A DNA stretch of 64,000 nt from Rhizophagus irregularis (lineage: Eukaryota), in the NCBI RefSeq assembly GCF_026210795.1, contig NC_089429.1, positions 930,001 through 994,000 of the forward strand, written 5' to 3'. This document shows, in pieces, positions 20,678 to 62,179 of this stretch. Each line of letters begins with the position of its first letter. Position 1 is the stretch's first letter. The notes under the pieces are model-generated. The model searched no databases. It was not told the origin of the DNA and saw only the letters and a list, made by a program, of their open reading frames with translations. Position numbers and translations under genes: made by a program.

Positions 20678-20776
20678 CATTGTCATTGTCATTGACATTG
20701 ACATTGACATTGACATTGACATTGACATTGTCACTGACATTGACATTGTCACTGACATTGACATTGTCATTGACAT
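20678..20776. repeat. Microsatellite (CATTGA/CATTGT)n
   Basis: cattgtcattgtcattgacattgacattgacattgac... Confidence 0.9.
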
Positions 20777-21360
20777 TTACATAAAGTTATATAAGATTAA
20801 TCTGAGAGTTTTTTACCAAAAAGGAAATTTTTTTATAAAAAGGGAAATGATTTTCAATTTCGAGGCAATTCAGCAGGTGTTTTAATAACAAATTGAGAAA
20901 TGATTTCCATAGAAAATCTCGTGACAAAATTTATAATAAATTTAAAATAAATGATCAACAAAAATGATCAACAAAATCGTTACTAGTTTTATAAAAAACG
21001 CCCAATAATATCTTTTTATTGTTTTAAATATATTACATATTGCATACTACTTACTGAATTATTAGACACGCCACTATAGTACTATACTCATTATATTAAT
21101 ATATTTATAATTATCATGAATTTCTTCTGAAATTATTGGTAATAACGATATAAAATATATGATATTTTTAAAAAATCTATATCAAGAAATAAATTCTATA
21201 TATTTTTCATTATATGAATAAAATATAATTGAAGATTATATTTATATTATTCACGCACATGTTCAAGAACAGATCCGAATTTGAATATAATTACTAATAT
21301 TTTTAATTAATTCTTTGTCATCAAATATCAGTCCCATATTTTTAAGGATTTCAATAACAA

Positions 21361-28352: not shown

Positions 28353-28999
28353 ATGAAATATATCGTGTTTATTATTGTATTTCTTAATACGTTCTCCAAT
28401 ATCTTTGCTTGGAGATTTGATCATGATTGCACAGGTAAGCTATCTAAGAACCATTTTTATTCTGCACAAGATAGCGTGATGTTAATAAATCATCTATTTT
28501 TTTTTTACTTTATGCTATTTTATCGTAATAAAAAGATATTAGCATTGTAGACATTAAATTTATACAAAATAATCAGGTCGAAGTAACCGTACATGGTCCA
28601 CAAAGAGTTTCACATCCTGGTTATTACCCTTGTTGTTTGCAACAGGGGCCAATGATCATTGGTAATTATAAAATTTACACAAATAACCCAAATGACCCGA
28701 TTGCTACTATTTGGGTAGACCGTCAATGGGTAAATGGTTACTCTGAGGATAATCTCGTAGATTCAAATAATTGCGTATATGGGCCACAACCGGATTGTGA
28801 CAAAGTTTATCAAGGAGCAATTGATTACACGCATACTTACGATTTTGATGCTTCAAGGTTCCCCCCTCCAGGAGGGAAAGTCACACTGTCAATGGATATA
28901 TATGCTCATTGTACTTTTGACTCTAATTATCAAGGGAGTACGTCTTGCTATCAGGGATGCTCATTAAATTATATCGCAGATTATAATCCACAAAAATAA
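28353..28999 (+). CDS. Small secreted cysteine-rich protein, 181 aa, 2 exons (28353-28434, 28536-28999)
   Basis: Signal-peptide-like MKYIVFIIVFLNTFSNIFA. A GTAAGC..AG intron joins in frame to DISIVDIKF...PCCLQQGPM...CYQGCSLNYIADYNPQK*. 8 Cys. Confidence 0.85.
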
Positions 29000-35024: not shown

Positions 35025-36662
35025 TTAAATAATGTCATTTATATCAGAAATACATAAAACAGAACTTTTTTGTACTATAACATTATGTAATTTAAATTCA
35101 CTTACTTCATCATCTGAAAAAAACAATTCTCTATTCGTATAATCATTAGAACAATATTCTGAAAACGCCAAATATTTAACCCTTTTCTTTTTCATAATAT
35201 ATTCCTTAATGTAAGATAAAATAATTTTATCATCATCTTTTGCCATATTTCTAATTAATAATTTCTTGATAAAAGTATTTTGAAAATTTCTTAAAAATAT
35301 TTCAAAATCGCTTATATTAAATGAAAGTGTTAAACTTAAATATTCTAATTTAGTAGGAAGAACTTGTCCTAAATTTCGTAATACAATTGAACTTAATAAT
35401 TCATCACAATCATTCCTAATACCCAAAATAACAGTAATATAAGTAATAGTTTGTCCAATATTTTCAATTAATTGATAAATATTAATATCATCAAATTTAT
35501 CTGAAAAAAAGTATCTAATTTTTGTACAATATTTCATAATTAACTTAAGTAATTGTCGTCTTTGTTCTTTATATATTTCGCCTATATATCCAAAATCCAA
35601 GATTTCAAAATTTTCTAAATAATCACCACATTTTTGTAATAGAAATTGTAATGATTCAATGTGTAATATTTCACCCATAAACAAAGATCTCAATTTAAAA
35701 GGCTTAGTAACTTTAATAATTTGTTGAACAAAATCAGAATTTAAAGAATCACAATAAAGAATATGAATAGATTCTAAAACATTCAACTGATCAAATACTT
35801 CTTGTAAAATTGTAATTATATTTTTAAAGTTAATACCATTAAATATAATTGTATTTAAAGTATTAGAACAATTAGAATTTTTTAGTGATAAAAATGGATT
35901 ATATAAATTTTTAGTATGATACCCAAATGAAATTCTTTTGAGATTATGTTGTGAAATAATTATTTGTAATAAACATTTTTCAATTAAAGAACGATTGTTG
36001 TCATTAGTTATATGAAAATCGAACACAATTGATGAAATTGAACTACAATTAGAATATAAAAATTTTAATAAAGGAATGATAATCATGGCATTATTTCGAA
36101 TATTAATTTGGAGTGTTAAATGTTTAATATTGTAAGTAAAAATTGAATTTTGTAAAATTAATTCTATAGTATCATTAAAATATGCAAAATGATTATCTGT
36201 AAGCATTATAAATTCAAAAGAATGTAAATTTCCTTCATTCTCAAGGAAAATTTCAAATAATGATCTACAAACTAATTTTTTTAGTTTCTCAGGATTATCA
36301 TTCATTAAAGTACCAACCCACGTTTCAACGGAAAAACAAATTCTAGTTGTTTTTAAATATTTAATAAGACTAGGATAATTGAATAATAATGTATTTGAGG
36401 GTAATAAGTTATTAATAATTCCATATTCATTAAATTTTTCTTTATCATCTTCTTTTAAATAGGATAAATAAATTTCAATATAACTATAATTTTGAGTAGG
36501 AATACAAAAAGGGTCTTCCCATAATAATGGAATCGCTAAACGACACCATAACCTATTAACTAAAATACACGAATACAATGTTGAAAAATCTTTTCTAAGA
36601 TGTTGTATAATTTCATTTGTTAATTCGGGTAAATCTCCTGAAAATATTTTTGAACATGCCAT
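35025..36662 (-). CDS. F-box-like domain protein with LRR/RNI-like C-terminus (545 aa from the MACSK start)
   Basis: Paralog of 23147-24778. The start was assigned at 36662 by homology, not at the upstream ATG 36830. Confidence 0.88.
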   Translation of the reverse strand: MACSKIFSGDLPELTNEIIQHLRKDFSTLYSCILVNRLWCRLAIPLLWEDPFCIPTQNYSYIEIYLSYLKEDDKEKFNEYGIINNLLPSNTLLFNYPSLIKYLKTTRICFSVETWVGTLMNDNPEKLKKLVCRSLFEIFLENEGNLHSFEFIMLTDNHFAYFNDTIELILQNSIFTYNIKHLTLQINIRNNAMIIIPLLKFLYSNCSSISSIVFDFHITNDNNRSLIEKCLLQIIISQHNLKRISFGYHTKNLYNPFLSLKNSNCSNTLNTIIFNGINFKNIITILQEVFDQLNVLESIHILYCDSLNSDFVQQIIKVTKPFKLRSLFMGEILHIESLQFLLQKCGDYLENFEILDFGYIGEIYKEQRRQLLKLIMKYCTKIRYFFSDKFDDINIYQLIENIGQTITYITVILGIRNDCDELLSSIVLRNLGQVLPTKLEYLSLTLSFNISDFEIFLRNFQNTFIKKLLIRNMAKDDDKIILSYIKEYIMKKKRVKYLAFSEYCSNDYTNRELFFSDDEVSEFKLHNVIVQKSSVLCISDINDII

Positions 36663-39600
36663 GTTGTTGAAGAAAATTGAAAAGGAGTGACTTTTTTTTA
36701 AAAAATGGAATAAATTTATTAATTTTAGTAGCGTTTGTTGTGCTACATAAATGACCAAAAATATTATGTAAATCGTTCCTTTTTTAACTAATTCAAATAA
36801 AATTCCCACCCCCAGCCAAATGATCGACATAGTCTCTAAGCTAAGTGGGCGTGCAGATTAGCCCACGAGATCATTGGTCCAATCTGTCCAAACAACTAAC
36901 CAATATCACATTAGTTTGGCCAGAATTAATCCCAGCAAAATTTAGCCGGAATTATAAAACGGACTTAAATGTCGGTTTTCAAATTTGACCGGGATTATAA
37001 AAACGGTTTGTAAACTTGACCAGAATTAATATAATTTCGCCCAATAAAATTTGGGCCGGAATTATAAAAATGGACATTTATGTCCGTTTTTGTAAATTTG
37101 GCCAGCGTTATGAATCTAAATATTTTAACCAATCATCCAGTAATCATAGAAAAAAATGTTAGCTTTGTCTCATCAAGACATGTTAGATTGTTTCTATCAT
37201 CAATAGAAGGGGAGTTATTAGCAATTCAGCATTTAGAAATATTTAAATTATTTTCAAAGAAATGTTAATACCTTATTATTTATTAATCCTAAAGATATAA
37301 AACTCCCACCATTTAATACATTTCAATACAATCCAACAAGCTGTGTATTATCTTTTTATAATTTACACTTGATGGATGGTAAGTTAATGCAATTTAACTT
37401 TTAGCAATTTGGTATATTTAACCAAAAAAAAAAAAAATTTTTTTCATTGTATTTAGATATCCAATAAAAATCGGACATATATAAAGATATTTATATTGTT
37501 TTTATTATTTATTTGATATATGAAAGTATATAAACATCTTGTTTTATAAATATTATATGAAAATTTTGTAAAGAAAATTATATGAAAATTTATCATTGAT
37601 ATGATAATTTACCAATTAATACAATTTATTATTTTAATACATCACATATTTATAGAAGTTTACTTTAACATGATATATATATATTACATTATAAATTTAT
37701 AAAGAAAATATATAAATAAACTTACAAATTTTCTCCAATAATAATATTTACCAATTATTATAATTTTTTATTTTAATTGCTATAAAGTTTATTAATGTAA
37801 GTCAGTATATATTTAATTATTTAAATTATATCTATAAACATATTTTTTATTAGATATAAATTATTTTAAATATTGTTAGAAATTGTAGAAATTGGATCTA
37901 TAAAATCATAATGGTCGAAAAATGGAGCCGAATTCCAAAGGTCTATCGGTTTTATGAATGTCTAACAAATATCTTCAATAATTCGAGAATGATCAATTTT
38001 TAAATGTAACACCAAGCCATCAAGAGAACTACTAATTAATATTCTATTAACTCTGATTGCCAATCATCCAGACCCGGTTTAATCGCAGAAAATTCACTGG
38101 GATTCCACAACGATCTGCGCCTGAGCCGGGTCCGGATCACGTCACGGCTAGTTATTTTTCGGCTAACTATTATAACAAAAACATTTATTAAAAACAAGAT
38201 TTTAGTATACATCTCTCTTAAATAATTTGTAATTTCTGGAGTGCAACGAAATTCTAATTTGGTATAACAAACTTCAGGAGATTGTAACATCCATTTTTAA
38301 ATATTAATATATATAATTTGATGATTTATCAAAAATAATATGGATAAATTTAAGTAAAACGGATCATTCCCCATTTTCTTTTTAAAAAATTTTATTGCAA
38401 GGATAGCACATAAAGATAGCTTAACTTATCCTGCATTAGTAGCTTCAATGACATATTCTAAAAAAATCAAAATATGCATGTAGCTCCAGACGGAATTAAC
38501 ACAAATCGCATGCGTCTCTTTTGATTATTATAAGAAAAATACTGTAGTTCAAACAATGTTAAAATTATATTTATATATAACAAGAAAAAAATTAAGGATA
38601 AGGACGTGTTCAAAAGAAAAATCCTACTTTTATTATGGGTTAATTGATGATCTTCAGTTGAAAGTAAAAAAGTTTAATAATATAGGGTTTTTTGTCTGTA
38701 ATAATGTAGTAAAATAATAATGGTTATTATACACATTGTTTAATACGTAAAAGCGTAAAATTCACGTCATCACCATAGTAAATGTGCTATATATGATTTA
38801 TAACTTATTAATATTATTGATAACATGCCAATAAGGTTTCAATTCCTATAAAATATAATTATAATAAAATATACTTGGTAAATGGAAACTGTTAAAAAAA
38901 GTCCATCGCAAATTGAAGGCCGCAGTAGGCACATGACTACATTCAACCAAACAAATATTAATTGTAAAATCATATTGTTATAATAAACTGTAAAAGAGTA
39001 AAGACCGAATAGCAGAATAAAAAAGACTAATTGGAATGGAAACTGTTAAAATTTTTTATCTCTTTAATCATTCAAAGTAATGTATTTTAACTACTAAAAA
39101 AGTATACTATTATCAATACAATTTAATAAAGAATTCGCTTTACACGTGATCTATTTATAATAATATGATCTTTTAACCATGAGCGTTAGTAATGTTAGTA
39201 ATATTAGTTATTTACCACAATCGGAAATATCAACAGATTCTGGTCACGGCTTTACAGTAGTTGTTGCATATAAACTCATTTTTACGAATATTTTAAATAA
39301 TTTTGTTTGATTTTGTCCTTATAAACATCGAAAACACTTTTTTTCAATTTCCATAATAATTTTGGTAAAAATAAAATAGTAAATAGTGATATATATTCTA
39401 TCAGTAATCGCTCTCATTACCAATTTAAATAAGTATATTTACAAAAATATCAAGTTTTTCACAGCACTTAGAATAATAACTAGGAGTACATGAAAATTGT
39501 ATTAAAACAAGATTAAATTGCTTGTTTGGAAACACTTACTGTATATAAAAGAACCTTATTCTACTCATGTCAAATATAGGAATCAAAAGAAGAATCTCAC

Positions 39601-43294: not shown

Positions 43295-44985
43295 TAAACT
43301 GTACTGTACGAACTGCTAAACTGTACTGTACGAATTTTTTTAAAAAAATTTATCGTACAGTACAGTACAGTACTATATAAAGCGTTATATTGTACTGTAC
43401 GATAAATTAAAAAAATTCGTACAGTACTGTTTATCACTATACTTATAATTTATATTATATTTGCGTATAACGATAAAATTAAAAAATTTACATATACTGT
43501 ATAATTAGTACCATACAAAATTTTGTATCAAATTCGTACAGTACATAATAATACCAATTATTTAATTAGCTCAATTTTATTTTGTAATAAATTTAAATTT
43601 TAATTCAAAATTGTACAATTCACACACTCCTTATTTAAAAAAAAAAATTTATTTACTACTATACTTTATAACTGATTATTTACATTTACTTTTTAATTTA
43701 AAAACAATTTTCTTAAAATTTTTTATTTCTAGGTGAACTTTTTCATAAATTATGATTAATCTAACATTTTTTATATTCAGGAATCGTCTTCTTGAATCTA
43801 GAAAAATAAAAAAAGGAGAAGGTAATGATAAAAGTAAGGATGATAAATAACAATGAAAAGGAACCATAGTAAAAGGAAAGCGTTTCAAATAAAATAACAA
43901 AGAGAGGCATTAAACAACAGAAACCAGGAACGAAGAATGATAAAAATGGAAGCATCAGAACGAAGAATATAGAAATTAAAAATAAAAAAGAGGAGTTAGA
44001 AATGAATAAACAGCAAAAGAGAGATGTCAGGAATGAAAATAAGAAAAAGCAACAGTTAAAGGAGAGTGTCAAAAACGAAAAGGCATTAGGAATGAAAAAA
44101 CAGCAAAAGAAAGGTATCGGGATCAAAGAACAATAAAAGGAATAAAAGGGAAGCATCAGAAATAAGAACAATAAAAAAAAGCATCAGGAATTAAAAACAA
44201 TAAAAAGAGAGCGTCAAAACCGAAAACAATAAAAAGGAGGAGTTAAAAATGAATAAACATCAAAAGAGAGGTATTATAAATGAAAAAGATCAAAGAACAG
44301 TAAAAGGGAGCATTAGAAACAAAAAATAATAAAAAGGAGGCGTCAGGAATGAAAATGAAAAAACAATAAAAAGAGGGCGTCAAAAGCGAAAAACAATAAA
44401 GAAGAGGAGTTAAAATGAATAAACATTAAAAGAGAGGTGTTAGGAATGAAAATAATGGAAAGGAATAAAGCGTCAAGAATGAAAAACAATAAAAAAAATG
44501 AAGAATCACCACACATAAAAAAGAAAAAAAATGATTAATAAGTTTCAAAAAAAGAAGTAATAGTAAACAAATAATAATAAAAAAAGACATACAGTACTTC
44601 GTTTTCTTAGTAGTTAGACCTGTTTTAAAAGAAGAAACTACAGTATCTTGTAACTATCTAAAGAAAAAACGGTCAACAAAACATAAAGAGTAAAATAAAG
44701 AAAAATAGCAAAATAATACCTTAAACTGTATCTAGAACTATCTCGAGAAAAGTTATTACAAGTTGTTCTAATAAAAAGAAAAACATTATGGTAATTACAT
44801 TTCAAAAAGTAAAGAATAGTAACTGATCACGAAAGAAAATAAAAATAGAAAAAAAAGTATGTAACGAAAGGTAGATGATCTGATAAACAAATAATTAAAT
44901 GTACGCGTGATAAATCACGTGATTAAAAATTCTGTACTGTACGAAAAAAAAATCGTACAGTCGTAATTCGTACAGTACAGTTTAT
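43295..44985. mobile_element. Putative non-autonomous element with (TACAG/CTGTA)n inverted ends and a purine-rich degenerate repeat interior
   Basis: Left end aactgtactgtacgaa and right end ttcgtacagtacagtt. The interior 43790-44520 has repeated gcgtcaggaatgaaaa/caataaaaagag units. Confidence 0.55.
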
Positions 44986-46859
44986 ATGTATACTCGAAAA
45001 TCTTGTACGAAAATATTTTGATCTATCAAGTAAAATAATTGAATGTGCATTACATCGCATAAATGATTACGTCATTCTTCTCTAGTATATAACTTTATAA
45101 TAATTTAATGAAAACTTAAATTCATGGTTTTTATTTTAAATATATTTAAGGCCATTTTTCATTTTTCTCTTTTAAAAGTAAAAATTAAATGGTGATCTTA
45201 AATACGATTCGATAAATTGCATCTATTGTAGAATGTAGAGTTTATTTAATAAAATAACAACAAAGATAATCGAGGCTTACTTTACTGACAACACGCGAGG
45301 CCAGAGTTATGTCGTAATGTGGGCCAGGTGATTAATTGTCAAGTACTGTGTTATCGGTGAAATTTTTGTTGGTCAAACGTCTTTTAATGAAGTGAGCTGC
45401 TGCTCAAAATCCCAATGATCAGAATCCCGTTATAACATAAACTTAACGCTCACAAGTCACAATCCTTGACAAATCATAATCTCGAAAGTTCAAAATCCTG
45501 ACACTTATTATACCGACACTTGATATCTTTTTTTTTTTAATTTTTATATTATTTTTTTAGACGTAATAATTTTGTCACGATTTTAATGTTTTTATTTCAA
45601 AAATTATATTTTTATTAATATTTATTAATTTTAATAATTATACTTCGCAAATTTGACACCACTATAACAGATAATGTTTACTGAAATTATGATTAATCTA
45701 TATCTATATTTATAAAAAAATCCCATAACGTTTAGACTACCCCGCATAAAAAGGTGGATTTAAATTGGATCGTCCACATCATGTGCCTGCGCCCTGTGCT
45801 ACAGATTCTTATATAGGATTCAAAGTGGCGCATCATTTGCCATTGATTAGCTTAATTGGGCAGCCCTAATCCTAATACAATTTCGAATTAAATGACAGAT
45901 TTATAGCAACGAAATTAAACTAAACCAATAAAAAATTTGTTAAGGCTATAAAAATTCCTCACATGAGAAATCATCATTGGCTTTTTAGAAATCGTCATTG
46001 TTTTTTTTTAAAAAAAAAATATTTTTCAGTTTTTTTGGATTTTCCCACATGACGAAAAAAAGATCCTTTTCTTTTAAAAAAATTTTACATTTAATTTTAA
46101 TTTCTTCATCACGAATTTGCCGATCATTTATTGACATTGTCACCTAAGAAAAGGTGACTATTTTATATAAATTCTACAGATCAACATTTACCGTTGAATT
46201 GTCCAGATAGGTACCTACAAAATAAAAAAAAAGGCGGAACAATCGGAACATCCCTGTTGCTGAAAAGCGACGTGAGACAATATTTCCTTTTTGGAAATTA
46301 ATGTAACCAAAAATTTTCCTTTAGGAATACTATTCATTTTTGTTTGTGTAACATAACTGACGAGCGGGAGAAAAGCTACACAATTACACAATTCAAAGGA
46401 TTCTTAACGTGACACCACATGATTGCAATGATTTCAAATAATAGATAAAGATAATACAACAATATATAAAAAAAAATATAATGATATAGTATTTTAGGAC
46501 AATACTCATACTGAATTTTAAAAAAATATTGTTAACACACAAATATGGTGAAAATATTGTCTGTATGAAATTCTTTTGTATGTTTGTGATGTTTCAGCTC
46601 CTAAAAAGTGTAACTAAAAATTTGACGTATTGTAGATCAATTACTAATTGTTTTTTCAAACACGGAGACATGCGTAAATGCACACAATATTAAAATCCAA
46701 AAGTATGAAAAAGTATAAATTAGCAAAAAATTTTCCTAAGAAGACAAAAAATTAAAATTCAATCAAAAAAAAAAAGAAAAAGAAAAAAATACTTTGATAG
46801 TTTTTTTCGCATAATTCAAACTCTTAAAATCAATTAAATTCTTTAAATTTCCTAACAAA

Positions 46860-46961
46860 ATGAATCAAACTGAAGTTACCATTAAACTATCCATTCCATC
46901 TATCGCAACTGCTGAAGCCACTGAAAAACCGGGTGAATCTGGTGGCTGTACAATTATGTAA
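46860..46961 (+). CDS. Putative CaaX-box lipopeptide pheromone precursor 1 (33 aa: MNQTEVTIKLSIPSIATAEATEKPGESGGCTIM)
   Basis: ATG in an AAAATG context, C-terminal CTIM followed by stop, GC-richer than the flanks, TATAAA 146 bp upstream, and a paralog at 50734. Confidence 0.75.
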   Translation: MNQTEVTIKLSIPSIATAEATEKPGESGGCTIM

Positions 46962-48349
46962 TAAAATAAAATTCTTTACATTTACGAATTTTATCGTCAG
47001 ATCTGATTGGAAATTAAACATTTATGTATTGTTAAATAATCATTTGTCTATAATTTGTCTATAGTTTACAACTTTTAAATTCTATTTATTCATTGTACTT
47101 TATATATATATATTTCGTTAGTTTATTTGTGTTATTATATTATCAAATTACTTAATATTCGAATCACTATTACATATTTTGTCTTGTATTCTGTATTTAG
47201 GGACATGTTTTAAAACGATTTCGGTGGTTTAAAACATGTGTTAAAGTTAAAAAATGTTTTAAAACACTTCGATATTATAAATTTTAAATCTTAAATTTAG
47301 GTTAAAAAATCAATTTATATATAATAAAACGAAAACTGTTTTAGAACATGTTGTTTTAAATTACGTGCCATACCTATCTGTATTTTATCATTTGTGTATT
47401 CTAAAAATTACAAAAATAAAATCACATCTTTAAATTCATTATTTAAAATGTTCTAAATTCTAATAATTTTGGCAAGTTTGAGGTTGCCTTAAAAGTTGTC
47501 TAAACCATAACTAATTTTCTAATAGTGTACACAGAAAATTTTCTATGCTGATCACGTAATAAGAAAAAAAATCTTTTTGATGCAAATACACAATATTTAT
47601 TAGGACCAGTTGATCATCTTTATAAGTAACGAAAAAAATCAAACTTATTTTATGTCAAGCAGGAAAAAAAAAATTCTAATTTCGCTCTGAAATTATGTAT
47701 CACGTGATTGACGTGACAGATCAGCCACGTTTTTTTAAACTTTAACAAACCTTTTCCTTTCTCACAGTCTCACCCTTTCCCTTCCCCGTCTTTTTCACTT
47801 CCTCTTGTTAATTTATTAATCTTATTAGTTAAAAAAAAAAAATAAACTTCAGTTTTTTTGCTTTATATTAAATAAAAACTAAAGGGGAGTTAGGACTATA
47901 AAATATAAAATATATGAAATGTGAATTATTTTGAACTTGTTCATTTCTAATAAAATCATGACATTCAGTTTGAATTTATAATAAATATTTTTCAACCATA
48001 ATTGAGTTAATTATGCAAATTTTTTAGTATCTTAATTTTATCATACCTTCAGAATTGTTATTTTTTGTACAGCAGTGAAAGGAGATGTTTTTTATATGAA
48101 AAGTTCTATATAAAATTTACATACAAATTTTATATAATTTTAAGGACCCAACATGGATTTTATGTAAATGTGTAAAATATGTCAATGTAGTTTTTAAGAT
48201 ATAAAACATATTTCATATAGTTTTAAATAAGTATTATTTAATATTATAAATTGTGAATTCAGTTTACTTTAGAAAATGTATTTATACAATATAAATTTTA
48301 AATAATATTTTTATATTTAAATAAAAAAATAAATAAGAATGTTTTTATT

Positions 48350-48830
48350 TAATTATCAAAAAAAAAACGTTGCGAAACGTTTTTTTTTTAATTAAACTAT
48401 CTAAAAAAACGTTTTCGCAACGTTTTTTAACAAATTAGCAAAAAAAAAAATGGTGTGAAACGTTTCTTTTTATTAAATTTTCTATTAAAAACGTTTTCGC
48501 AACGTTTTTTAACAAATTAGCAAAAAAAAAATGGTGTGAAACGTTTCTTTTTATTAAATTTTCTATTAAAAACGTTTTCGCAACATTTTTTAATAAATTA
48601 TCAAAAAAAAAAAAGTTGCGAAACGTTTTTTTTATTAAATTTTCTATTAAAAAACATTTTCGCAACGCTTTTTTAACAAATTTTCAAAAAAAAAGTTGTG
48701 AAACGTTTTTTATTAGATCATTTATCAAAAAAACGTTTCGCAACATTTTTATTTAATTATCAAAAAAAAATATTGTGAAACTGTTTTTTAATTAAAACTA
48801 TATAAAAAACGTTTTCACAACGGTTTTATT
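48350..48830. repeat. Short tandem array of palindromic AAACGTT(T)TCGCAACGTTT units (~98-bp period)
   Basis: Repeated aaaacgttttcgcaacgtttttt / gttgcgaaacgttttt. Confidence 0.8.
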
Positions 48831-50733
48831 CAAAACATTTTCGTTAAAATACAATAATTTTGTTATCACCACATATTTTTTGTATATTTGATTGAATAAA
48901 TTACACCTTTACGTTATTTTAAGCGTGATTTTTCAAAATTATATTATATATTAGGCTTGTAACAAATGAAAAAAATGCTAATATTTTAACAAAAATTTTT
49001 TAATTTTTTAAAAAATAAACTGTTTGTAGTTCATAGAATATTATGTAGAGCCACAAAATTTAAATACATTACAATAGGAAAACATATCAATAATAATTTA
49101 TAAATAAAAGAATGTAATGATGCAAAAAGGTTAAAGAAAAAATATTTTTAACTTGTTTTTAAAAAAATTTTTAGGTATGATCATTTTATATGTTGCAGAT
49201 CAAAGATCATGGTTTTTTTTTGTATTAGATGATCGCTAAGAAAAGTTCGCAACTAGTACTACACGTCTTTTTTTTTATTATTTCTTTACAAACATTTTTT
49301 CAATTTGTAAATATTCTATAAAAAACTTTCAAGAATAATAATGTTCTAAATATAAACTAAATATTTATTTATTTATAAATAACTTTACATTCGTATAGAT
49401 TTATCCCTGATATGAGTACTACCCATTTGAGTACTACCTGCTACACAACTTTCTGTAAAAATTAATTTATTTTTAGCTCCATAAAAGAATTATCAAGAAC
49501 GTGCTGTTTTCGATAGAGGTCATTTGATAGGATCAGATTGTGCTCCCGTAAAGTGACACAACCTGGATCTAGAACACACTTTTTTTTTTGTATTTAAAAA
49601 GGTACAAAAACAAATGATTATCAATCACGTGATATTATACTACCTTACGTAAAATGAAACACTAAACACTAAGGGGAATATTTACAAAGAGACAAATAAG
49701 CTATAGATAATAAGAATCATTGCTAAGAATTTATGATAATCAGTAATCGAATAATAATAATGAAAAAAAAAATAAAAATAAAAATAAGCCAATTAACCAT
49801 TTTTAAAAATTGTTCAAAATTAATCAAACAATCATCACTTTTGCTTTTAATATTATTATTTATCTATTATTTACCCATTTTTTTTTTAATAAGATGATTG
49901 TGAAAACTCTTGCTGCTGCCGGAATAAACTCATCTGATGGAAAATTACTTTTCCATTTTTATTGCAAGCTATCCCAAATTTTTATGCTAAGCTGCTCAAC
50001 CAGACATATTATGATTTTCACTTTTACATCTTTTACATACTAGCTAGCACATCAATTAACAAAAAGATTTATTGAATATATTTGAACATATTATTATAAT
50101 ATATGATAATTGCTTTGATTTCATTTTGTAAGGTTTAATTTAAATATATCATAAATAAATTATTATCGTTATCACACGGAAATGTATCGTGACAATGACT
50201 GTAAGCAAAGAATACTTAGTTTCAAATTATGCATGAACGTGTACAAATAAAAAATTTAAAATCAAGAAAATTAATCTGTGCGACGGTCGATTTACTTGTT
50301 GGGAATATGGCCGACGTATCCGTAACGCATGAATATTATTACTATAACAGATAATAGATTTATACCAATCTTTAAATAATTTCTAAAAAAGGATATACCC
50401 GATATGACCTGGACAATTTTGAAACATAAAGGGAGAATATCAATAACAAAACAATACAATGCATGGGGGAGGAAATAATAATGAAAAATAAATTACATAA
50501 TAAGAAAACAATGTAAAGTATGTAAAATTCTAATTTTCTACGATGATAATAGATATTTTAAAAGCCTAAAATTTGTTTGTTTGATTTATTATAAATACGC
50601 TTTGCTTCGCCTTGTAAAATCCCATCAAAAGAAAAAAGTTCAAAGAACAAAAAAAAATAACTAATCAAATTAATCAAAGAAATCAAATAAATATTAAATT
50701 CTCAAAATTCTTTCTCAAGTAAATTAATCAAAA

Positions 50734-50835
50734 ATGAATCCAACAACTATCACCTCTAAACCAATTGTTATTGTTACTTCCGAAATAACCGAAAAACCTG
50801 ATGGTAATCCTACAAACTCATGCTCTATAATGTAA
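50734..50835 (+). CDS. Putative CaaX-box lipopeptide pheromone precursor 2 (33 aa: MNPTTITSKPIVIVTSEITEKPDGNPTNSCSIM)
   Basis: ATG in an AAAATG context, C-terminal CSIM followed by stop, shares MN.T..T.K, T.E.TEKP and C.IM with the 46860 ORF, and TATAAA 144 bp upstream. Confidence 0.75.
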   Translation: MNPTTITSKPIVIVTSEITEKPDGNPTNSCSIM

Positions 50836-52197
50836 ACGGAAAATTCTTCTATGGGGACGGCACAAACGACTTAACGACTTCGGTTATCACATGAAGATCA
50901 ATTTTAACCAAAAAATTATACCTAATGACTATTCGTTACGAAATGGCCTGGAGCTATTATTTCTATTAAATTTCTTTATATCAACTTGTATCATATGTAT
51001 CATAAAAAAAATATCTTGTATAATTTAAAATATTATTTGTAATTTTGAATATTTTTTATATTTGTTTACTTTTTCATTAAAATAAAAATTTTTGATTTTA
51101 CGTATTATAACTGAAATTATCTAAATGTCCTTCTGTTGCGCTTCATTTTCAAAGATGCTTAATATTGTTTAATATTGTTTATTACACAGCAGCTGCCGTG
51201 TGATCAACTCCTTAAAAATGTGACCGTAAATCCAAACTATTTTTAATCACCATTGAGTACCAATTTTGCCGTAGCATGTCAATCCGGCTGATCATTTCAA
51301 ATTCTCGAACCTAAGAGGATTTTATTAACTTGTCCTGTCTTGTCCTGTCTAGCACTATAATAAGTACTATAATACTTCCGGAAAAAAAAAATTGTGCAGA
51401 TCATGCCCATATTTTGAAGCAAATTGAAATTCAAAATGTGTATTTGTTTTTTTATTGTAACATTATAATGATGTCAATGTAATGTTTTGCGTATAAAGAT
51501 ATAATTTTTTTTAATAACCTGCTGATTAGAATTTAATAATCATTTTTTATTCATGAGGAAATTAAGTGTCAGGATAAAAAAGTGTCGGGATAATGAATGT
51601 CTGGATTTTGAAATTTTAAGATTTCCATTTTTTTTTTGTTCGAAAAAGGACAAATAAGATCGTGATTCTAATGTTAAATGTAAAAAAAGGATGAAAATAA
51701 ATTAAGTAAATAAGACAATTTTCACAATTGCGCCAAGAACCTCTCCGTAGTTAAGATAAAATCCCCCTACCAACATATGCAATTTTCAATTGAAAAAAAT
51801 ACATAAACATTACTACCATTTTAATTATTGATTTTAAAAAACATTCGACATATTACAAATAATTGATAATTAACGATATGTTGTTTATGGTCGAAAAAAT
51901 TAATCTATCAATATGCTTTAAAATAAATATTCTATAAAAGACTAGACTAATTATTAATATATTTGTCTTGAAAAATTTAATACGAAACTTATTTGTGAAG
52001 TAAATATAAATTCTAGTTAATAATTCATGTTAAATTAAAAATTTGTTTGATAATATATGATTAATCTTATGATTTTGATTACAACATTGGCTATATTACT
52101 ACGTTGATACTCGGTGGCAAAAGTTTTCCGAAATAATTCATTAGATAATTCGATACCATAAGTATAGGAACATAATTAGAGTATTATGGATTTATGG

Positions 52198-52432: not shown

Positions 52433-53339
52433 ATTTATGGTATACATAGTAGAATTTACAGTGCTAAAATTACACGTGTAAATCTACGCTGATCAAAGGT
52501 GGAAAACTGGAAATCTGAAACCAAGTTATTGATAATTACTAAAAGTTTATAATTTATTTGCATTCATTATCATTTGCGCTGAATTATTTAGTTTATTCTT
52601 TTTAATCTTTTTAATTAAAAACTAATCATTTATTAATTAGCTTAAATAAAAAAAAATGGTAATAGAAGAGTATCAAAATTTATCAAATTTTTTGCAAAAA
52701 GAATTAAGTATTGAAAATTTTTTGAATTCCGAAAAATCGAATTAGCTTCATAGAGTTCTGGAATTCTAAAAAGTGTGTTTATTGTCAATAAAAACTATTT
52801 GCAATTTTTCCATTCTTAAGATCTTCAAAAATATTTTTTTTTTTATTGCCTAATAAAAGTAATAAAAATGATCAATTATAATTAGACTTATGAAAGTGGT
52901 GGCGTATTGGTGTATTATAATGATTTGTTGATAAAAAAAAACTTTAACCGAATTATTTTTACTATAATTTGAATAAGCTATTCTTATGGAAGGAATCAAT
53001 AGGAACACGTTAAGTTATAAAAATGAAAGTTGCAGAAATTTTTAGTCAATTAGTTTTTTATTACATAACAAGCAGGATAATATACGGGGATGAAAATAGG
53101 ATTAATCTATATTTTATCTTAATCCTCGGATTAATCCAAATTTTATCTCAGAAAATCCAGGGATTAATTTTCAGACTTTTAACGTGGACGGTGCTTCATA
53201 TTCAAAATTATATAGATTTTTTATTAATAATTTATTATGAAAATAATTAAAATAATCTATTAACCATAATTATTTTTATATATTATTTATTACATTTTAA
53301 TACTAAGAATAAATATAAATATTGTATTAGTATTAATAA

Positions 53340-53656
53340 AACTATAACATACAAACAAAGTTAAATAATAAAATGGTCCTCTATTTTTTGTTTTTTTTTT
53401 GTGCTGCCCTTAGCCTTTGCGTGAAGGTAGTATGGATTAGCTGATATATCTCGAGAATGAAATGTCAAATCTGGATCTCCATATTCGCAATTCATCCATC
53501 CGCCGGTATCCATTACGGTATTACCCGAATTATCTGTAGCCCAAACTTTGAAGATAAAAACACAAATACACCGAAAGTAGCATTGAATGCTTCAATTTGT
53601 TCAAGTGCTATAATACAAATTATGGCAACAATGATTAGAGGAATGGAAAGTTTCAC
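53340..53656 (-). pseudogene. Pseudogene of a small secreted protein
   Basis: GTG at the expected start, then signal-peptide-like KLSIPLIIVAIICIIALEQIEA. A frameshift leads to FKVWATDNSGNTVMDTGGWMNCEYGDPDLTFHSRDISANPYYLHAKAKGST, and a second shift in a poly-A run leads to KNRGPF. Confidence 0.65.
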
Positions 53657-55879: not shown

Positions 55880-56660
55880 ATAAGATGCTAATAAAAAAAG
55901 AAATAACAATGGAGTAATGGAAAGTAATAGAAGAAGAAAGGGAGTAAAAAAGAGTAATAAGAAGTGATAGGAAACAAAAAGGAGAAATAGGACATGATGG
56001 ATGATGAAAAAGAGTGATGAGAGACGAAAAGAAGTGATGGGAGATGAAAAGGAGTGATGGAAGATGAAGAGAAGTGATGGGAAACGAAAAGAAATGATGG
56101 GAAGTAAACAGGAGAGAAAAAGAAATAATGGAAAATGAAAAGATGTAATAGAAAATAATGGGAGACGAATAACGAGAAGTAATATGAGGTGAAAAATGAT
56201 GGGAGACAAAAAATAAAAAATGATCATGATAAGAGGTTGGGTAATGATAGGAAACCAAGTAAAAAATAAAACCATAAAGTAAAAAAAAAATGAAGTTAGT
56301 AAGAAACGAAATATAAGATAAAACGAAATAAAAAAAATAAATAAAAAATAAAAAGCATACCTTTATTAATTGTAGAACCGAAAGAACTAAAATATCTAAA
56401 AAAAATGAAATAAATTAGTGAAAAATGAAATAGTATGAAACAGAAACAAAATAAAAAAAATTAAAAAATGAGTAAGAAACGAGAAAAACAACTGAACCTT
56501 AATTACCTTAATTGCAGAACTGGAAGGACTAAAGGACCTAAAAATGATGATATAGAGTTAGTAAGAAACAAAGTGTAAGCAGAAATAAAAATAAAAGGAA
56601 AGAAAAATACCTTGAGACTGAAAGAACTGAGGAAACGAACCCTATACTGAAAACGAGATT
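55880..56660. repeat. Purine-rich low-complexity degenerate repeat (GTGATGGGAGA/GAAAA units)
   Basis: Repeated aagtgatgggagatgaaaa-like units. The overlapping minus-strand ORFs are low-complexity artefacts. Confidence 0.7.
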
Positions 56661-57340
56661 CGATAAACAAATAAACATGACGCGATCATGTGGCCAATTT
56701 GGCCAATCAAAAATAATAAATCCGTCACGTGATCGAAGACTTATATAAGAGAAGTAACGTAATAGATCATGTGACTTTACGTTACTTACTTAGCCAATTT
56801 CCGTTACTTACTTTCTATATATTCACTCTCAATAATTGCTTTTTTATTGATTACTGAATTTTGAAATCGACTATTAAGACTGATCAAACTAATCAAATAA
56901 TCATATTTCTAAATATTAAGTTCTTGCTTTTTTTGTTACACTGCCAAAAAAATTTTGTGTTTATGATTATGATGATTAATTTAATAGGATTTCTTTTGTG
57001 TCACAATTTTAGGCACAACCATTTACCGTAACATATAATTAAATTCTACCCACGTGACCGGTGACATTTAAGGGGATGTTAAAAAAATAATTTTGGGAGG
57101 TCCCTCAGATAAAATAAATATCAACAGTGAAAAAGCGCGGCGGCGGTGATGAATGTTTTTAGGTCACGTGGGTTATAAATTAATGGGAAAGATGGCACAA
57201 CCATGGAAGTTATGTGGACAAATTTACACTGCATGGAATTTGGTGTAATTGTTATTACGCCAACTTCTTTTTTCCAACGCGTCGATCACAATATTTTTTT
57301 TTAAAAAAAAAAAGTTTCAAACAAAAAAAAAAATTCAAAC

Positions 57341-60300
57341 ATGTCATCCCGAAATGATATTAAGTGTAAAAATTGTAATGATTTTTATACAGATATAAAA
57401 CATAAATGGTGTAAACCATGTCAAATAAATAAAGTTATAAAAAGTGTTACAAATTGGACTAGTGGAAATGAAAAAATTGAACATTTTATTCAAGAAGCAC
57501 AATTAATGTTTGAAGGATATTATGATGCAATAGTTGAATGGATACCATACAATCAATTTAACGATATCAAAGAAATAAATAAAAGTAAATTTTCTGCAGT
57601 ATATTCAGCAATATGGAAAGATGGTCCATTGCAACATGATGAACATTATGAAGAGTTGAGGAGAGTATCTAACAAAGAAGTTATCTTAAAATATTTCTAT
57701 AACTTACAAAATATTGTCAATGATTTATTATATGAGGTATGAAATTTTCAATTTCTTTATAATATTATTTAAGTACTGTTTATTATAACAATCACTTTTT
57801 ATATTCAACAGGCTAAATTATATTCTATTGAAAGGGTAAATATGATCTTTTTAATATCTTATAATCTCATTCAATCACTCTTTATTTAATACCTTTCTAT
57901 ATTTAACAGATTATACCAAATTATACAAAAAGAGACGGAGATTATCTTAAAATATATGGAATATCTCAAAATCCAGATACAAAATATTATATCTTAGTTT
58001 TTAATGATAGTTATTGTCTAAAATGTGGTGAAATTTATACAGAAGATAGGAAATTAAATAATAAATGGTGCAAGCCATGTCAAATGAATAATTTAAAAAA
58101 TCGGTTTGAAGACTGGACCAGTGGAAACGAAAAAATTAATAAATTTATTCAAAAACTTCAATTAAAAATCAATCATCATAGTGATATTATAATTGAATGG
58201 ATACCATATTACCAGTTTAGTGATATTAAAAAAATAAGCAAAAGTGATCTTACTGAAGTATATTCAGCAAAGTGGAAAGATGGACCATTTCAATATGATA
58301 AGAATTTGGGAGAGTACTTAAGATTACCTTACAAAGAAATTGCTTTGAAGTATTTTTATAATTTACAAAATATCAATGATTTTTTATTTGAGGTATGGAA
58401 TTTCTGGTTCTTTTATAATTAAATACTTTTATTATAACGATAATAACTTTTCTATATTATATTTTAACAGATTAAATCTTATTCTATAGAAATAGATTCT
58501 TATTTTATAGAAATGGATAAGAACTATAACAGTTTTAATATATATGGGATATCTCAAAATCCAAATACAAAAGATTATATCGTAGTCCTTAATAATGGTT
58601 ATTGTGAAAACTGTAGTAAAGTATATACAAATATAAAGGAAAAATGGTGCAAAACATGCCAATTAAATAATTCCGAAAAAAAATTTTCATTTGGAATCAG
58701 TGAAAATGAAAACATTGATAATTTCATCCAAGAAATGCAACTTAAAATTAGTTGTTCAAGTGATATAATAGTTGAATGGATACCATACAACCAATTTGGC
58801 ATTATTAAAGAAATAAGTAAAGGTGATTCTACTGCGGTATATTCAGCAATCTGGAAAGATGGTCCATTACAACATGATAAACATAACGGAGAGTTGAGAA
58901 GAATGCCTAATAAAGAAGTTGCTTTAAAATATTTGTGTAATTCTCAAGATCTTAATAATGAATTTATAAATGTGGTATGAATTTTAATTAATTGTTGTTA
59001 TCTAATTTAAATATTTTATTTGTTATAATAATTTTTACATCTTAACAGGTTAAATCATATTCTATTGAAGTCGATCCATATAATTATATTCTTAATATAC
59101 ATGGAATATCTCAAAATCTAAATACAAAAGATTATGTTATAGTTCTTGATAATGGTTATTGTGAAAACTGTAGTGAAGTATATACAAATATAAAGGAAAA
59201 ATGGTGTAAAACATGTCAATTAAATAGTTTTGAAAAAAAATTTTCATATGGAATTAGTGAAAATGAAATCATTGATAATTTCATCCAAGAAATGCAACTT
59301 AAAATTAGCCATCCAAGTGATATAATAGTTGAATGGATACCATACAACCAGCAATTCGATTGTATTGAAGAAATAGGCAAAATTGGTTCTACTATATTAT
59401 ATTCAGCAATATGGAAAGATGGTCCATTACAAATTGATGAACATTATGGTATATTAAAAAGGATATCCGATAAAAAAGTTACTCTAAAATATTTACATAA
59501 TTCATATAATTCATCAAATATTGCTAATAAATTATTAAATGAGGTAAATGTTTTTCTTAAAATTAAGTAATTATTTGTTTTAATAATATAATAATGACAT
59601 TTCTATATAAATAGTTTGGTCAACAACATTTTATTCGTAGAACAGGTTTAATTCTTAATTTATTTGGTTTAACCCAAAATTCAAATACAAATAATTATAT
59701 TTTAGTTTTTAATAATAATTATTGTGAAAATTGTAATAATAAATCATATACACATATAAATTATAAGTGGTGTAAACAGTGTCAATTAAATAATTTAAAG
59801 AAATCTTTTGTAAATTGGGCCAGTGGAAATGAAAAAATTGATAATTTTATTCAAGAAATGCAATTAAAAATTAATGATGATTATGATATTATAGTTGAAT
59901 GGATACCATATAACCAGTTTAGTGATATTAAAGAAATAAGTAAGAATGATTCTTTTGCAGTATATTCAGCAGTATGGAAAAGTGGCCCATTAAGATATGA
60001 TACATTTTATAATAAGTTACAAAGATATTCACTTGTTGATAATAAAGTTTTTTTAAAATATTTTTATAGTTTACAAAATATTACTAATGAGGTATGAACT
60101 TAATCTTTTTAATTTTTTTTTAAATTTAATTAATCATTTTTATATTTCATTTTATATTTTCATAGATTGAATCATATTCCAATAATACATTCAATGGTAA
60201 TCAGAAAATATATGGAGTATCTCAGAATTCAAATACAAAAGATTATCTTATAATATTTCAAGATTATTGTTGTAAAAACTGTGGTGAAATAAATGTGGTG

Positions 60301-62179
60301 GGTAATTTTGGATGGTGTAAACCATGTCAAATAAATAATTTAAAACAAAATTTTGAAAATTGGACTAGTAAAAATAAGGAAATTGATGAATTAATTCAGA
60401 AAATGCAATTAAAAATTGGTAAAGATGATGATATAATTATTGAATGGATATCATACAATCAATTTATTAATATTAAAGAGATAAGTAAAGATGATTTTGC
60501 TATGATATATTCAGCAATATGGATGGAAGGTCCACTACAATATGATTGGTATAATGGTAGAGAGCAAAAAAGAATGTTTACTAATAAAAAAGTTGCTTTA
60601 AAATATTTATGTAATTCACAAGATATTAATGAAATTTTAAATGAGGTATAAATTTGTCTTTTTTCTAAATTTAATCAAATACTTGATTAAAATTAATTCG
60701 TTTAATTTATTAGATTAGAGAGCATTCTATCAGTAATGATGATGAAATTCTTAATATATATGGAATATCTCAATATCCAAGTACAAAAAATTACATTATA
60801 GTACTTCAAGATGGTTATTGTAAAGACTGTGGTAGAATATATACAAATGTAAATAAAAAATGGTGTAAACCATGTCAATTAAATAATTTAGAAAAAAATC
60901 TTTCATATGGAATTAGTGAAAATGAAAGCATTGATAATTTCATCCAAGAAATGCAACTTAAAATTAGTTGTCCAAGTGATATAATAGTTGAATGGATACC
61001 ATATAATCAATTTAGCAATATTGAAGAAATAGGTAAAGGCGGTTTTGCTATAGTATATTCAGCAATATGGAAAGATGGTCCGTTAAAAATTGATTATAGA
61101 TATGACGGAAAGTTGAAAAGAATACCTAATAAGAAAGTTGCTTTGAAGTGTTTAAATAATTCACAAAATATCAATAATAAATTTTTAAATGAGGTATGAA
61201 TTCATTTTTTTTTTTGAATTTAATAAACATTTTTTCAATGCATAGTATTTATTATATTTTGAATTTGACAAACCTTGTCTTTAATGGATATTATTTATTT
61301 TTATAGGTTAAAGAGTATTCTATTAGCAATAATGATAATATTCTTAATTTATATGGAATATCTCAAAATCCTGATACAAAAGATTATATTATGATTTTAA
61401 ATTATGCAAATAATGGGAATATTAATAATTATAGTTATATTAATATTGAATGGTATTGGTTTGAAAGATTATGGATGTTAAGAGATATTATTGAAGGTCT
61501 TAAAAAAATTCATGGAAATAATATGATCCATCGTGATTTTCACACGGGGAATATATTATTATCACTTGATTTTAATAGTTATGGCAAATCTGGAAATCCG
61601 TCTAGTGATTTATATATTTCAGATATGGGATTATGTGGAGAAGTTGGTAATGTAGATGAAACAAAGATTTATGGAGTTATGCCTTATGTAGCCCCAGAAG
61701 TATTAAAAAGCAAACCTTACACCCAAGCAGCAGATATATACAGTTTTGGTATGATTATGTATTTTGTAGCAACTAAAAAACAACCCTTTGCAAATTGTGC
61801 TCATGATAATATATTAGCATTAAATATATGTAATGGAAATAGACCTAAAATCAATGAAAACGAGGTTCCAAAATGTTATGTTGATTTAATGGAAAGGTGT
61901 TGGGATTTAAATCCAAATAATAGGCCAAGTGCTATTGAAGTAAGTGAATTGATTGAATTATTTTGTAATTCCAGTTATATGGGTGCTAATAAGGATAAGG
62001 AAATTGAAAAGCAATTTAAAGAAGCAGAAGAATATAGAAAAGCAAATTATACATCTATAGGAAATAGTCAATTAACTAGTCACCATCCACAAGCTTATTA
62101 CACTTCTCGATTACTCAATCCATTTACCAGAGATCTTTCAAATAATGATACTGATTGTTTAGACTGTATGATTGATTGA
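57341..62179 (+). CDS. Large multi-exon TKL kinase with seven tandem CxxC..CxxC + kinase-N-lobe-like modules and one C-terminal catalytic lobe
   Basis: Repeats of C..C..WCKPCQ..WTSGNEKID..EWIPYNQF..YSAIWKDGP..V(A)LK, each ending at a phase-0 GT donor. The final exon has HRDFHTGN, DMG, YVAPE and CWDLNPNNRP. Confidence 0.88.

What the first reader, a model, noticed from the sequence alone, without database searches (positions are those of the whole stretch)
46860..50835. Pair of unannotated 33-aa CaaX peptides: candidate lipopeptide mating-pheromone cluster in an arbuscular mycorrhizal fungus
Seen: two same-strand micro-ORFs 3.9 kb apart in an otherwise gene-empty region, both below the ORF-track cutoff and both exactly 33 aa: MNQTEVTIKLSIPSIATAEATEKPGESGG-CTIM* and MNPTTITSKPIVIVTSEITEKPDGNPTNS-CSIM*. 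The DNA has diverged, but MN.T..T.K, T.E.TEKP and terminal C.IM are kept, which suggests protein-level selection. Established: short precursors without a signal peptide and with a terminal CaaX (X=M favours farnesyltransferase) are the architecture of yeast a-factor, S. pombe M-factor and basidiomycete pheromones. These are processed by FTase/Ste24/Rce1/Ste14, exported by Ste6-type ABC transporters and sensed by Ste3 GPCRs. Inference: these are pheromone-like precursors in a Glomeromycotina genome, a lineage with no observed sexual cycle whose Mucorales relatives use trisporoids. They could signal in mating, anastomosis/self-recognition or to the host.
Basis: partly seen in the sequence, partly recalled or inferred. 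Interest (0 to 1): 0.95.

Follow-up and report, generated by a model that had tools for sequence, protein, structure and literature searches.

The report
Candidate pheromones of arbuscular mycorrhizal fungi
Two tiny genes in a root-symbiotic (arbuscular mycorrhizal) fungus belong to a heavily transcribed family found across these fungi, and each peptide ends in a lipid-attachment signal, so they are likely the missing pheromone-type signals for a receptor that these supposedly asexual fungi are reported to carry.

Summary
Observation confirmed. Both 33-codon CaaX ORFs are real genes of a Rhizophagus irregularis-like fungus. PolyA reads from a strain with the same species label pile up on both as short unspliced transcripts (0.29-0.37% of reads, paralogues included), with near-zero depth between them. 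dN/dS is below 1 in 21 of 21 pairs. They belong to a multi-copy family with named members in 11 Glomeromycotina species. The shared unit is T-E-x-P, 5-11 residues, then C-S/T-I-M; 27 of 86 records hold two units with an internal CaaX, as in rhodotorucine A and hpp1 precursors. Public gene models splice away the stop codon, and reads do not support that. Rhizophagus is reported to have STE3 and STE6 but no known peptide ligand (PMC3834313). Best reading: a-factor-like farnesylated peptides, exported and read by Ste3 (about 0.65 in any role; 0.5 as a signal not restricted by mating type). Farnesylation, export, receptor binding and any role in mating are untested. No STE3 was found nearby, and both subtypes are expressed together.

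The parts
46860..46961 (+). Gene 1: single-exon 33-aa CaaX precursor, glycine-rich subtype
   Evidence: ORF; summed read depth about 16,800-20,900 in the bin 46813-46983; one listed variant in the CDS, synonymous (46868); identical protein in JGI/IMG
46714..46719 (+). TATAAA box of gene 1 (inferred promoter)
   Evidence: 146 nt before the ATG; aligns with TATAAAT upstream of gene 2, L004, L025 and L035
46750..47447 (+). Approximate transcript of gene 1 (start estimated; strand inferred from the ORF, library unstranded)
   Evidence: Depth rises in bin 46642-46812; molecule ends at 47201, 47438 and 47447; depth about 10 or less beyond 47500
46920..46931 (+). T-E-K-P motif of gene 1, predicted start region of the mature peptide
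   Evidence: Invariant in alignment A3; E is 12 residues from the C-terminus, within the 10-15 given for basidiomycete ER/EH pairs
46947..46958 (+). CaaX box C-T-I-M of gene 1, followed by TAA
   Evidence: Sequence; farnesylation inferred from the established CaaX rule, not shown
50734..50835 (+). Gene 2: single-exon 33-aa CaaX precursor, P-T-N subtype
   Evidence: ORF; summed depth about 1,800-2,400 at 90% likeness, mostly from variant copies; 31 of 33 residues match R. irregularis DAOM 197198 records
50590..50595 (+). TATAAA box of gene 2 (inferred promoter)
   Evidence: 144 nt before the ATG; read ends pile up at 50632-50650
50632..51047 (+). Approximate transcript of gene 2 (strand inferred from the ORF)
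   Evidence: Molecule ends at 50632-50650 and 51047
50788..50799 (+). T-E-K-P motif of gene 2
   Evidence: Invariant in alignment A3; E is 14 residues from the C-terminus
50821..50832 (+). CaaX box C-S-I-M of gene 2, followed by TAA; the GT spanning the last codon and the stop is where gene predictors appear to open an intron
   Evidence: Sequence; the common variant at 50823 keeps Cys; model P0012 continues in another frame at 50897-50947; no such joint listed in reads

Best explanation
The two ORFs are transcribed, conserved members of a Glomeromycotina multigene family whose peptides are likely farnesylated, trimmed and exported like yeast a-factor, and likely act on the fungus's own Ste3-type receptor as a fungus-to-fungus signal that is probably not restricted by mating type. 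Shown: ORFs, transcription of the family, purifying selection, family range, one- and two-unit architectures in protein records. Inferred from the established CaaX pathway: farnesyltransferase modifies the Cys (X = Met), a CaaX protease removes the last three residues, and Ste14 methylates the end. Inferred from motif position: the T/I/V-rich pro-region is cut at or near T-E-x-P, giving a 9-11 residue lipopeptide (EKPGESGGC and EKPDGNPTNSC as candidates); the x-Pro bond may stop aminopeptidase trimming. Inferred from literature: export by the STE6 orthologue and sensing by the single STE3 orthologue upstream of a Gpa1/Ste4/Ste18-MAPK-Ste12 pathway. Role inferred: sensing of hyphal density or neighbours, with homing, fusion and sexual or parasexual competence as possible outputs. 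Odds: exported Ste3 ligand in any role about 0.65; in this non-mating-type-restricted form 0.5.
For: Terminal CaaX in 47 of the first 73 records, 45 of them ending in Met. T precedes E-x-P in 86 of 91 units, and E-to-Cys length is 9-15 residues, the size of basidiomycete lipopeptide pheromones and the position of their ER/EH pair (passages). 27 of 86 records carry a second unit behind an internal CaaX, with linkers kept across genera; this points to proteolytic release of several peptides, as described for rhodotorucine A and hpp1 (passages of PMC3068285). Multi-copy: at least 5 distinct promoter-region haplotypes in one DNA run, some shared between runs of different samples; multi-copy is typical of a-factor genes. 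dN/dS 0.08-0.61 in 21 of 21 pairs. Halary et al. report one STE3, an STE6 and the downstream pathway in Rhizophagus but found no peptide gene. A genome survey lists the Ste3 family in 0.286 of its 14 Mucoromycota and in no earlier clade. Both subtypes are expressed in each of 3 samples laid, which fits a signal not tied to mating type.
Against: No biochemical or functional evidence. I could not check STE3, STE6, RAM1, STE14 or STE24 in this genome (no genome held). No STE3 among 35 of 72 long frames scanned, whereas mushroom pheromone genes flank their receptors. One reported receptor faces several different peptides per genome. An acid-base pair is present in only 66 of 91 units. Gene 1 has no Asn within 5-20 residues of the Cys, so it fails the yeast Axl1-site filter. 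Abundance of about 0.3% of polyA reads is more usual for a structural protein than for a signal (own knowledge). In Neurospora, pheromone receptors are dispensable for somatic fusion. Motif conservation among hits is partly circular, since the profile contained the motifs. I did not see the DNA of the two-unit records. RNA evidence is one study, two samples, unstranded, from another strain, plus one contig set only guessed to be RNA.
Confidence: 0.5

Rival explanations
1. Intracellular prenylated micro-proteins: the farnesyl group would anchor the intact peptide to membranes or lipid droplets, or act as an isoprenoid sink, with no export and no receptor.
For: Very high transcript share (0.29-0.37% of reads); many near-identical copies; the P-T-N type end is kept in 78 of 91 units across orders, more conserved than species-specific pheromones usually are (own knowledge); no receptor found nearby.
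Against: An internal CaaX kept in two-unit records has no use unless the chain is cut; the conserved E-x-P sits at pheromone distance from the Cys; no binding or catalytic domain is seen (0 Pfam families for 8 of 8 members); an orphan Ste3/Ste6 pair is reported.
Confidence: 0.2
2. Classical mating pheromones: exported Ste3 ligands whose alleles or expression would sort by mating type and trigger a cryptic sexual cycle.
For: Same architecture and pathway evidence as the best explanation; two strongly different subtypes exist (13 versus 78 of 91 units); putative mating genes respond when isolates coexist (passages of PMC7490403).
Against: Both subtypes lie side by side in one genome and are expressed in the same samples; identical-looking variant copies recur in DNA runs of different samples; no receptor or homeodomain gene found in the frames scanned; only one STE3 reported. 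Mating types and ploidy of the runs are unknown to me, so this is not decisive.
Confidence: 0.15
3. Exported lipopeptides aimed at the plant host or at hyphosphere bacteria and not at the fungus's own receptor.
For: Named members come only from obligate root symbionts (16 of 16 species-named rows, 25 of 25); high expression.
Against: The anatomy follows fungal pheromones, and a fungal receptor without a ligand is reported; no plant or bacterial receptor evidence; tissue of the RNA samples unknown; absence outside Glomeromycotina is not shown, because the searches need shared words and short genes are under-annotated.
Confidence: 0.12
4. Not independent coding genes: chance ORFs in abundant non-coding RNA, exons of the longer spliced models in public annotations, or transposon fragments.
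For: Several public models extend these ORFs by splicing and lack the terminal CaaX (P0010, P0011, P0012, P0027); no ribosome or peptide evidence; reads are unstranded; 10 of 86 records lack an intact unit.
Against: No GT..AG joint is listed from either ORF; the one joint near model P0027 has 6 reads against a depth of 17,000-21,000 and carries other letters; dN/dS below 1; listed CDS indels are 3 nt while flanking ones are mostly not (12 of 51 rows shown); all 39 profile hits are 29-110 aa.
Confidence: 0.03

Closest known systems
Basidiomycete lipopeptide pheromone precursors (Coprinopsis, Flammulina, Pleurotus, Lentinula PHB genes)
   Same: Short precursor, terminal CaaX, acidic (often acid-base) motif 10-15 residues from the end, predicted mature peptide of 9-15 residues, several different peptides per genome.
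   Different: Precursors are shorter (27-35 versus 46-72 aa); the fixed motif is T-E-x-P; no receptor gene found beside them; no sign of mating-type alleles; no Pfam match; host lineage is outside Dikarya.
Tandem-unit CaaX precursors: rhodotorucine A (Rhodosporidium toruloides) and h-type HPP1 (Trichoderma reesei)
   Same: Repeated units separated by internal CaaX boxes; HPP1 ends its units in C-T/S-V-M, close to C-S/T-I-M here. 27 of 86 family records have two units.
   Different: The two window genes are single-unit; no dibasic Kex2 site is evident in the linkers listed; no sequence homology was shown.
Saccharomyces cerevisiae a-factor (MFA1/MFA2) with Ste24, Rce1, Ste14, Axl1/Ste23, Ste6 and Ste3
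   Same: Similar precursor size, no clear signal peptide, terminal CaaX, multiple gene copies; STE3 and STE6 orthologues reported in Rhizophagus.
   Different: The Asn-X Axl1 site is missing in gene 1 and marginal in gene 2 (one search rule); the predicted mature peptide is polar and lacks aromatic residues; expression is not shown to depend on mating type.
Putative a-factor of Leotiomycetes (PMC10569646)
   Same: Short CaaX gene found only by targeted search and expressed without mating-type restriction (passages).
   Different: Ascomycete, with a partner alpha-factor system; reported RPKM up to about 200, far below the share of reads seen here.

Membership tests
a-factor-class (CaaX lipopeptide) fungal pheromone precursors | Short ORF (under 100 aa) ending in a CaaX box directly before the stop | tested here: met
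   33 aa, C-T-I-M and C-S-I-M before TAA; no splice joint removes the stop
a-factor-class (CaaX lipopeptide) fungal pheromone precursors | Real, transcribed gene under protein-level selection | tested here: met
   family-level transcription in another strain; dN/dS below 1 in 21 of 21 non-independent pairs
a-factor-class (CaaX lipopeptide) fungal pheromone precursors | No N-terminal signal peptide | tested here: inconclusive
   Only a hydropathy scan: best 9-residue means 1.39 and 1.80, from short stretches; no signal-peptide predictor was run
a-factor-class (CaaX lipopeptide) fungal pheromone precursors | Multiple gene copies or repeated units | tested here: met
   Two copies in the window; at least 5 haplotypes in one DNA run; two-unit records
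a-factor-class (CaaX lipopeptide) fungal pheromone precursors | Farnesylation, AAX removal and carboxymethylation of the product | not testable with these tools
   Needs mass spectrometry or labelling
a-factor-class (CaaX lipopeptide) fungal pheromone precursors | Export by a Ste6-type ABC transporter and activation of a Ste3 receptor | not testable with these tools
   No genome held; STE3 and STE6 orthologues are reported for Rhizophagus in PMC3834313
a-factor-class (CaaX lipopeptide) fungal pheromone precursors | Role in mating; mating-type-specific alleles or expression | tested here: inconclusive
   Both subtypes expressed together and variant copies shared between samples, but mating types of the runs are unknown
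Basidiomycete-type pheromone precursors | Acid-base pair 10-15 residues from the C-terminus | tested here: met
   E-K at 12 and 14 residues from the end in the two genes; across the family E-K or E-R in 66 of 91 units only
Basidiomycete-type pheromone precursors | Location beside STE3 in a P/R locus | tested here: not met
   No STE3 match among 35 of 72 stop-to-stop frames of 70 aa or more; short exons were not scanned and DNA outside the window was not available
Basidiomycete-type pheromone precursors | Sequence match to known pheromone profiles | tested here: not met
   0 Pfam families at E up to 10 for 8 of 8 members
Saccharomycotina a-factor | Asn cleavage site 5-20 residues before the Cys (Axl1/Ste23) | tested here: not met
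   Absent in gene 1; in gene 2 Asn25 leaves 5 residues starting with Pro (rule)
Tandem-unit precursors (rhodotorucine A, h-type HPP1) | Repeated units with internal CaaX in one ORF | tested here: inconclusive
   Not met by the two window genes; seen in 27 of 86 family protein records, whose DNA I could not fetch

The most novel reading that the evidence does not exclude
This family is the ligand of the arbuscular mycorrhizal Ste3 receptor and governs partner finding, hyphal fusion and the unseen sexual cycle of these fungi. It would be the first peptide pheromone outside Dikarya, would date the lipopeptide-Ste3 system to the common ancestor of Mucoromycota and Dikarya, and would give a synthetic compound with which to trigger or block mating in fungi that cannot be transformed.
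Probability: 0.3. Interest if true: 0.95.

Novelty: new variant of a known kind. Interest (0 to 1): 0.82.

Why it matters
Whether and how arbuscular mycorrhizal fungi mate is a long-standing open question. A 2013 survey found the receptor (STE3) and exporter (STE6) of an a-factor system in Rhizophagus but no peptide, and asked for new methods to find it (PMC3834313, passages). This family supplies concrete 9-15 residue candidates that can be synthesised and tested on a yeast-expressed receptor and on germlings. It is also among the most abundant polyA transcripts in the runs laid, yet is missing or mis-spliced in public gene models, so transcriptome studies of these fungi probably overlooked it. 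Ten full-text searches of the held library listed no report of it; most subscription journals and bioRxiv supplements are not covered.

Tried and rejected
No whole genome is held, so genome-wide copy number, linkage and pathway genes were not checked. The look-up of sequencing runs listed no indexed holder on record as RNA; expression rests on the raw reads laid afterwards. The metagenome pattern scan gave 52 loci, of which 5 are family members (L004, L012, L025, L035, L047); the other 47 were out of frame or unrelated proteins and were dropped. A stricter pattern found 0 matches in prokaryotic genomes. The ESM Atlas gave no usable hit for gene 1 or P0060. PDB sequence search gave 3 chance-level rows, E 0.74-1.8. 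Pfam: 0 of 8 members. A check of viral contigs could not be run for so short a query. No structure or complex prediction was run: the peptides are too short and no receptor sequence was in hand. Earlier notes of this scan held nothing for this sequence or genome; two searches returned other genomes. Rejected: terminal or first exon of a larger gene; transposon fragment (no long relatives among 39 hits); a Ras/Rho or G-gamma tail (no upstream coverage or frame). P0007 and P0017 look like gene models joining two neighbouring copies and are not counted as evidence for true two-unit genes. The ':CDS:1/2' tags in record names differ between sources for one protein, so I did not use them as exon counts. 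A TTTGT repeat before the TATA box of gene 2 resembles an HMG-box site (recalled), but such words are common in AT-rich DNA and gene 1 lacks it nearby. PMC8778642, PMC10013875 and PMC7539958 (passages) added nothing on a ligand.
Full report
Observation. Both ORFs are as described: 46860-46961 and 50734-50835, + strand, 33 aa, ending C-T-I-M and C-S-I-M before TAA. Each has an AAAA-ATG start and TATAAA 146 or 144 nt upstream. The peptides share 15 of 35 aligned positions. Small ORFs ending C-x-I-M occur 2 times against 0.017 expected from 60 simulated windows; a looser CaaX pattern gives 3 against 0.5 (max 3), so the CaaX alone proves little. A profile finds no third copy in the window.

Organism and surroundings. 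GC is 19-29% in 2-kb bins. Pfam on 35 of the 72 stop-to-stop frames of 70 aa or more found protein kinases, F-box-like and BTB-BACK-TLD genes, and no STE3. These expanded families are typical of Glomeromycotina (own knowledge). Gene 2 matches R. irregularis DAOM 197198 records at 31 of 33 residues, so the window is from R. irregularis or a close relative.

Transcription. Three polyA runs (two samples, one study, same species label) laid 31,913, 37,752 and 41,125 of 11,053,536 reads each on 46300-51400, or 0.29-0.37%. Summed depth is about 16,800-20,900 over gene 1, 1,800-2,400 over gene 2, and about 10 or less between 47500 and 50400. A fourth data set, contigs only guessed to be RNA, shows the same two peaks. 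Read ends pile up at 50632-50650, about 40-60 nt after the TATA box. Limits: the library is unstranded, and the strain differs from the window. At gene 2 only 271 of 8,715 reads are 99% alike or better, so most of that signal comes from alleles or paralogues. At gene 1 the only listed CDS variant is synonymous, while the 3' UTR has many variants and indels (66 variant rows not shown).

Not exons of larger genes. Public models often extend these ORFs. P0012 continues in another frame at 50897-50947 and P0027 at about 47200-47430, which implies predicted introns; for gene 2 the donor is the GT formed by the last Met codon and TAA (inference). The reads list no such joint for gene 2; the joint nearest to model P0027 has 6 reads and carries other letters. 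These models lose the CaaX, which probably explains why the family was overlooked.

Selection. A pattern scan of metagenome contigs gave 52 loci, 5 of them family members in contigs of 23-27% GC; one lies beside a kinase gene like those in the window. Nei-Gojobori dN/dS on the 7 coding sequences is 0.08-0.61 in 21 of 21 pairs, and 0.08-0.35 among the 10 pairs of the gene-2 subtype. The pairs are not independent and hold only about 24-31 codons. The TATA box aligns in the 5 upstream regions compared.

Family. A profile search gave 39 hits at E up to 0.001, all 29-110 aa; further searches gave 61, 3 and 34 rows. Every species-named row is Glomeromycotina (16 of 16, 25 of 25): Rhizophagus irregularis, R. 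clarus, Funneliformis geosporum, Acaulospora colombiana, Diversispora eburnea, D. epigaea, Gigaspora rosea, G. margarita, Cetraspora pellucida, Dentiscutata erythropus and Racocetra persica. That spans Glomerales and Diversisporales (classification recalled). Absence elsewhere is not shown. Of 86 records, 76 have at least one unit. Among 91 units T precedes E/D-x-P in 86, the E-to-Cys span is 9-15 residues (46 at 10), and x is K or R in 66. These counts are partly circular because the profiles contained the motifs. 78 units are of the P-T-N type like gene 2 and 13 of other, mostly glycine-rich types like gene 1. Ten records lack an intact unit, some through mis-modelling and some apparently through loss of the Cys. 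DNA contigs of three samples show many variant copies of gene 2, at least 5 haplotypes over its promoter in one run, with matching pieces in another run (24 of 269 pieces shown; heterokaryosis could inflate the count). L047 holds part of a second copy 1.47 kb away.

Two-unit precursors. 27 of 86 records have a second T/G-E-x-P behind an internal CaaX. One (P0007) looks like a model joining two genes. In 7 named Diversisporales species the linkers begin H-S, Q-S or Y-T and resemble each other across genera, which random splice junctions would not do (inference). I could not fetch their DNA. An internal CaaX is useful only if the chain is cut behind it. This is the arrangement described for rhodotorucine A and HPP1 (PMC3068285, passages) and is the best argument for processed peptides over a membrane-tethered micro-protein.

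Literature. Halary et al. 2013 (PMC3834313; passages and a supplement search) report one STE3, an STE6 and the downstream cascade in Rhizophagus, and state that no peptide pheromone gene was found. A supplement row of PMC10406608 gives the Ste3 family in 0.286 of 14 Mucoromycota, that is 4 species, not named in the row, and in no earlier clade. Mushroom pheromones carry an ER/EH pair 10-15 residues from the end and mature to 9-15 residues (PMC3140503, PMC4136793, PMC7288658; passages); here E-K lies 12 and 14 residues from the end. Gene 1 fails the Asn-site filter used for yeasts (10.1101/2021.09.28.462209; passages). Mateus et al. saw no induction of pheromone genes in co-inoculation (PMC7490403; passages), but these genes were probably not modelled correctly. 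A putative Leotiomycete a-factor is expressed without mating-type restriction (PMC10569646; passages). In Neurospora, pheromone receptors are dispensable for somatic fusion (PMC6455062; passage), which counts against an anastomosis role. Ten searches (listings only) showed no report of this family; subscription journals and bioRxiv supplements were not visible and could hold one.

Mechanism. Shown: genes, transcription, selection, range and unit structure. Inferred: farnesylation, AAX removal and methylation; cleavage near T-E-x-P; export by Ste6; sensing by Ste3. I put an exported Ste3 ligand at about 0.65, split into 0.5 for a signal not restricted by mating type and 0.15 for classical mating pheromones. 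The split rests on both subtypes sitting in one genome and being expressed together, shared copies between samples, one reported receptor and no receptor found nearby; mating types of the runs are unknown. An intracellular prenylated micro-protein gets 0.2, a host- or bacteria-directed peptide 0.12, and an artefact 0.03.

Verdict. The thing works like an a-factor-class precursor by anatomy. Membership is not established: modification, export, receptor and role are untested, and linkage to STE3, the yeast Asn site and a Pfam match were not met. It is a real, abundant, apparently undescribed peptide family and a strong candidate for the ligand of an orphan receptor in a group whose sexual cycle has not been seen. 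Interest 0.82.

Noticed in passing
window 48351-48827: An 81-bp tandem repeat, 5.9 copies, 82% matches, lies between the two genes; almost no RNA reads.
   Followed up: partly
window 53330-53560, - strand: Last exon of what looks like a small cysteine-containing secreted protein, with an apparent frameshift in an A-run near its end; no Pfam match. It recalls small secreted families of Rhizophagus (recalled, not tested).
   Followed up: no
window 28326-28999, + strand: Probable two-exon gene for a secreted, cysteine-rich protein with a signal-like start and no Pfam match.
   Followed up: no
window 50570-50590; L004 and L035 upstream regions: A TTTGT-containing stretch just before the TATA box is shared by gene 2, L004 and L035; possibly a transcription-factor site. 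Not tested.
   Followed up: partly
window 46931-47197 (reads): A few reads carry a different glycine-rich end after the T-E-K-P motif, pointing to a further gene-1-like paralogue in the RNA strain (table 5c).
   Followed up: no
P0029: This record joins a forward copy and the reverse complement of another copy, suggesting an inverted pair of family genes in some genome.
   Followed up: no
window 57305-62179, + strand: A long multi-exon kinase gene with many repeated cysteine-motif modules before the kinase domain.
   Followed up: no
window 14797-15960, 23147-24778, 35025-36830, - strand: Three related long ORFs, two with weak F-box-like matches, apparently a local gene family.
   Followed up: no
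window 43971-44529 and 55995-56156: Purine-rich low-complexity repeats that give spurious long ORFs on the - strand.
   Followed up: partly
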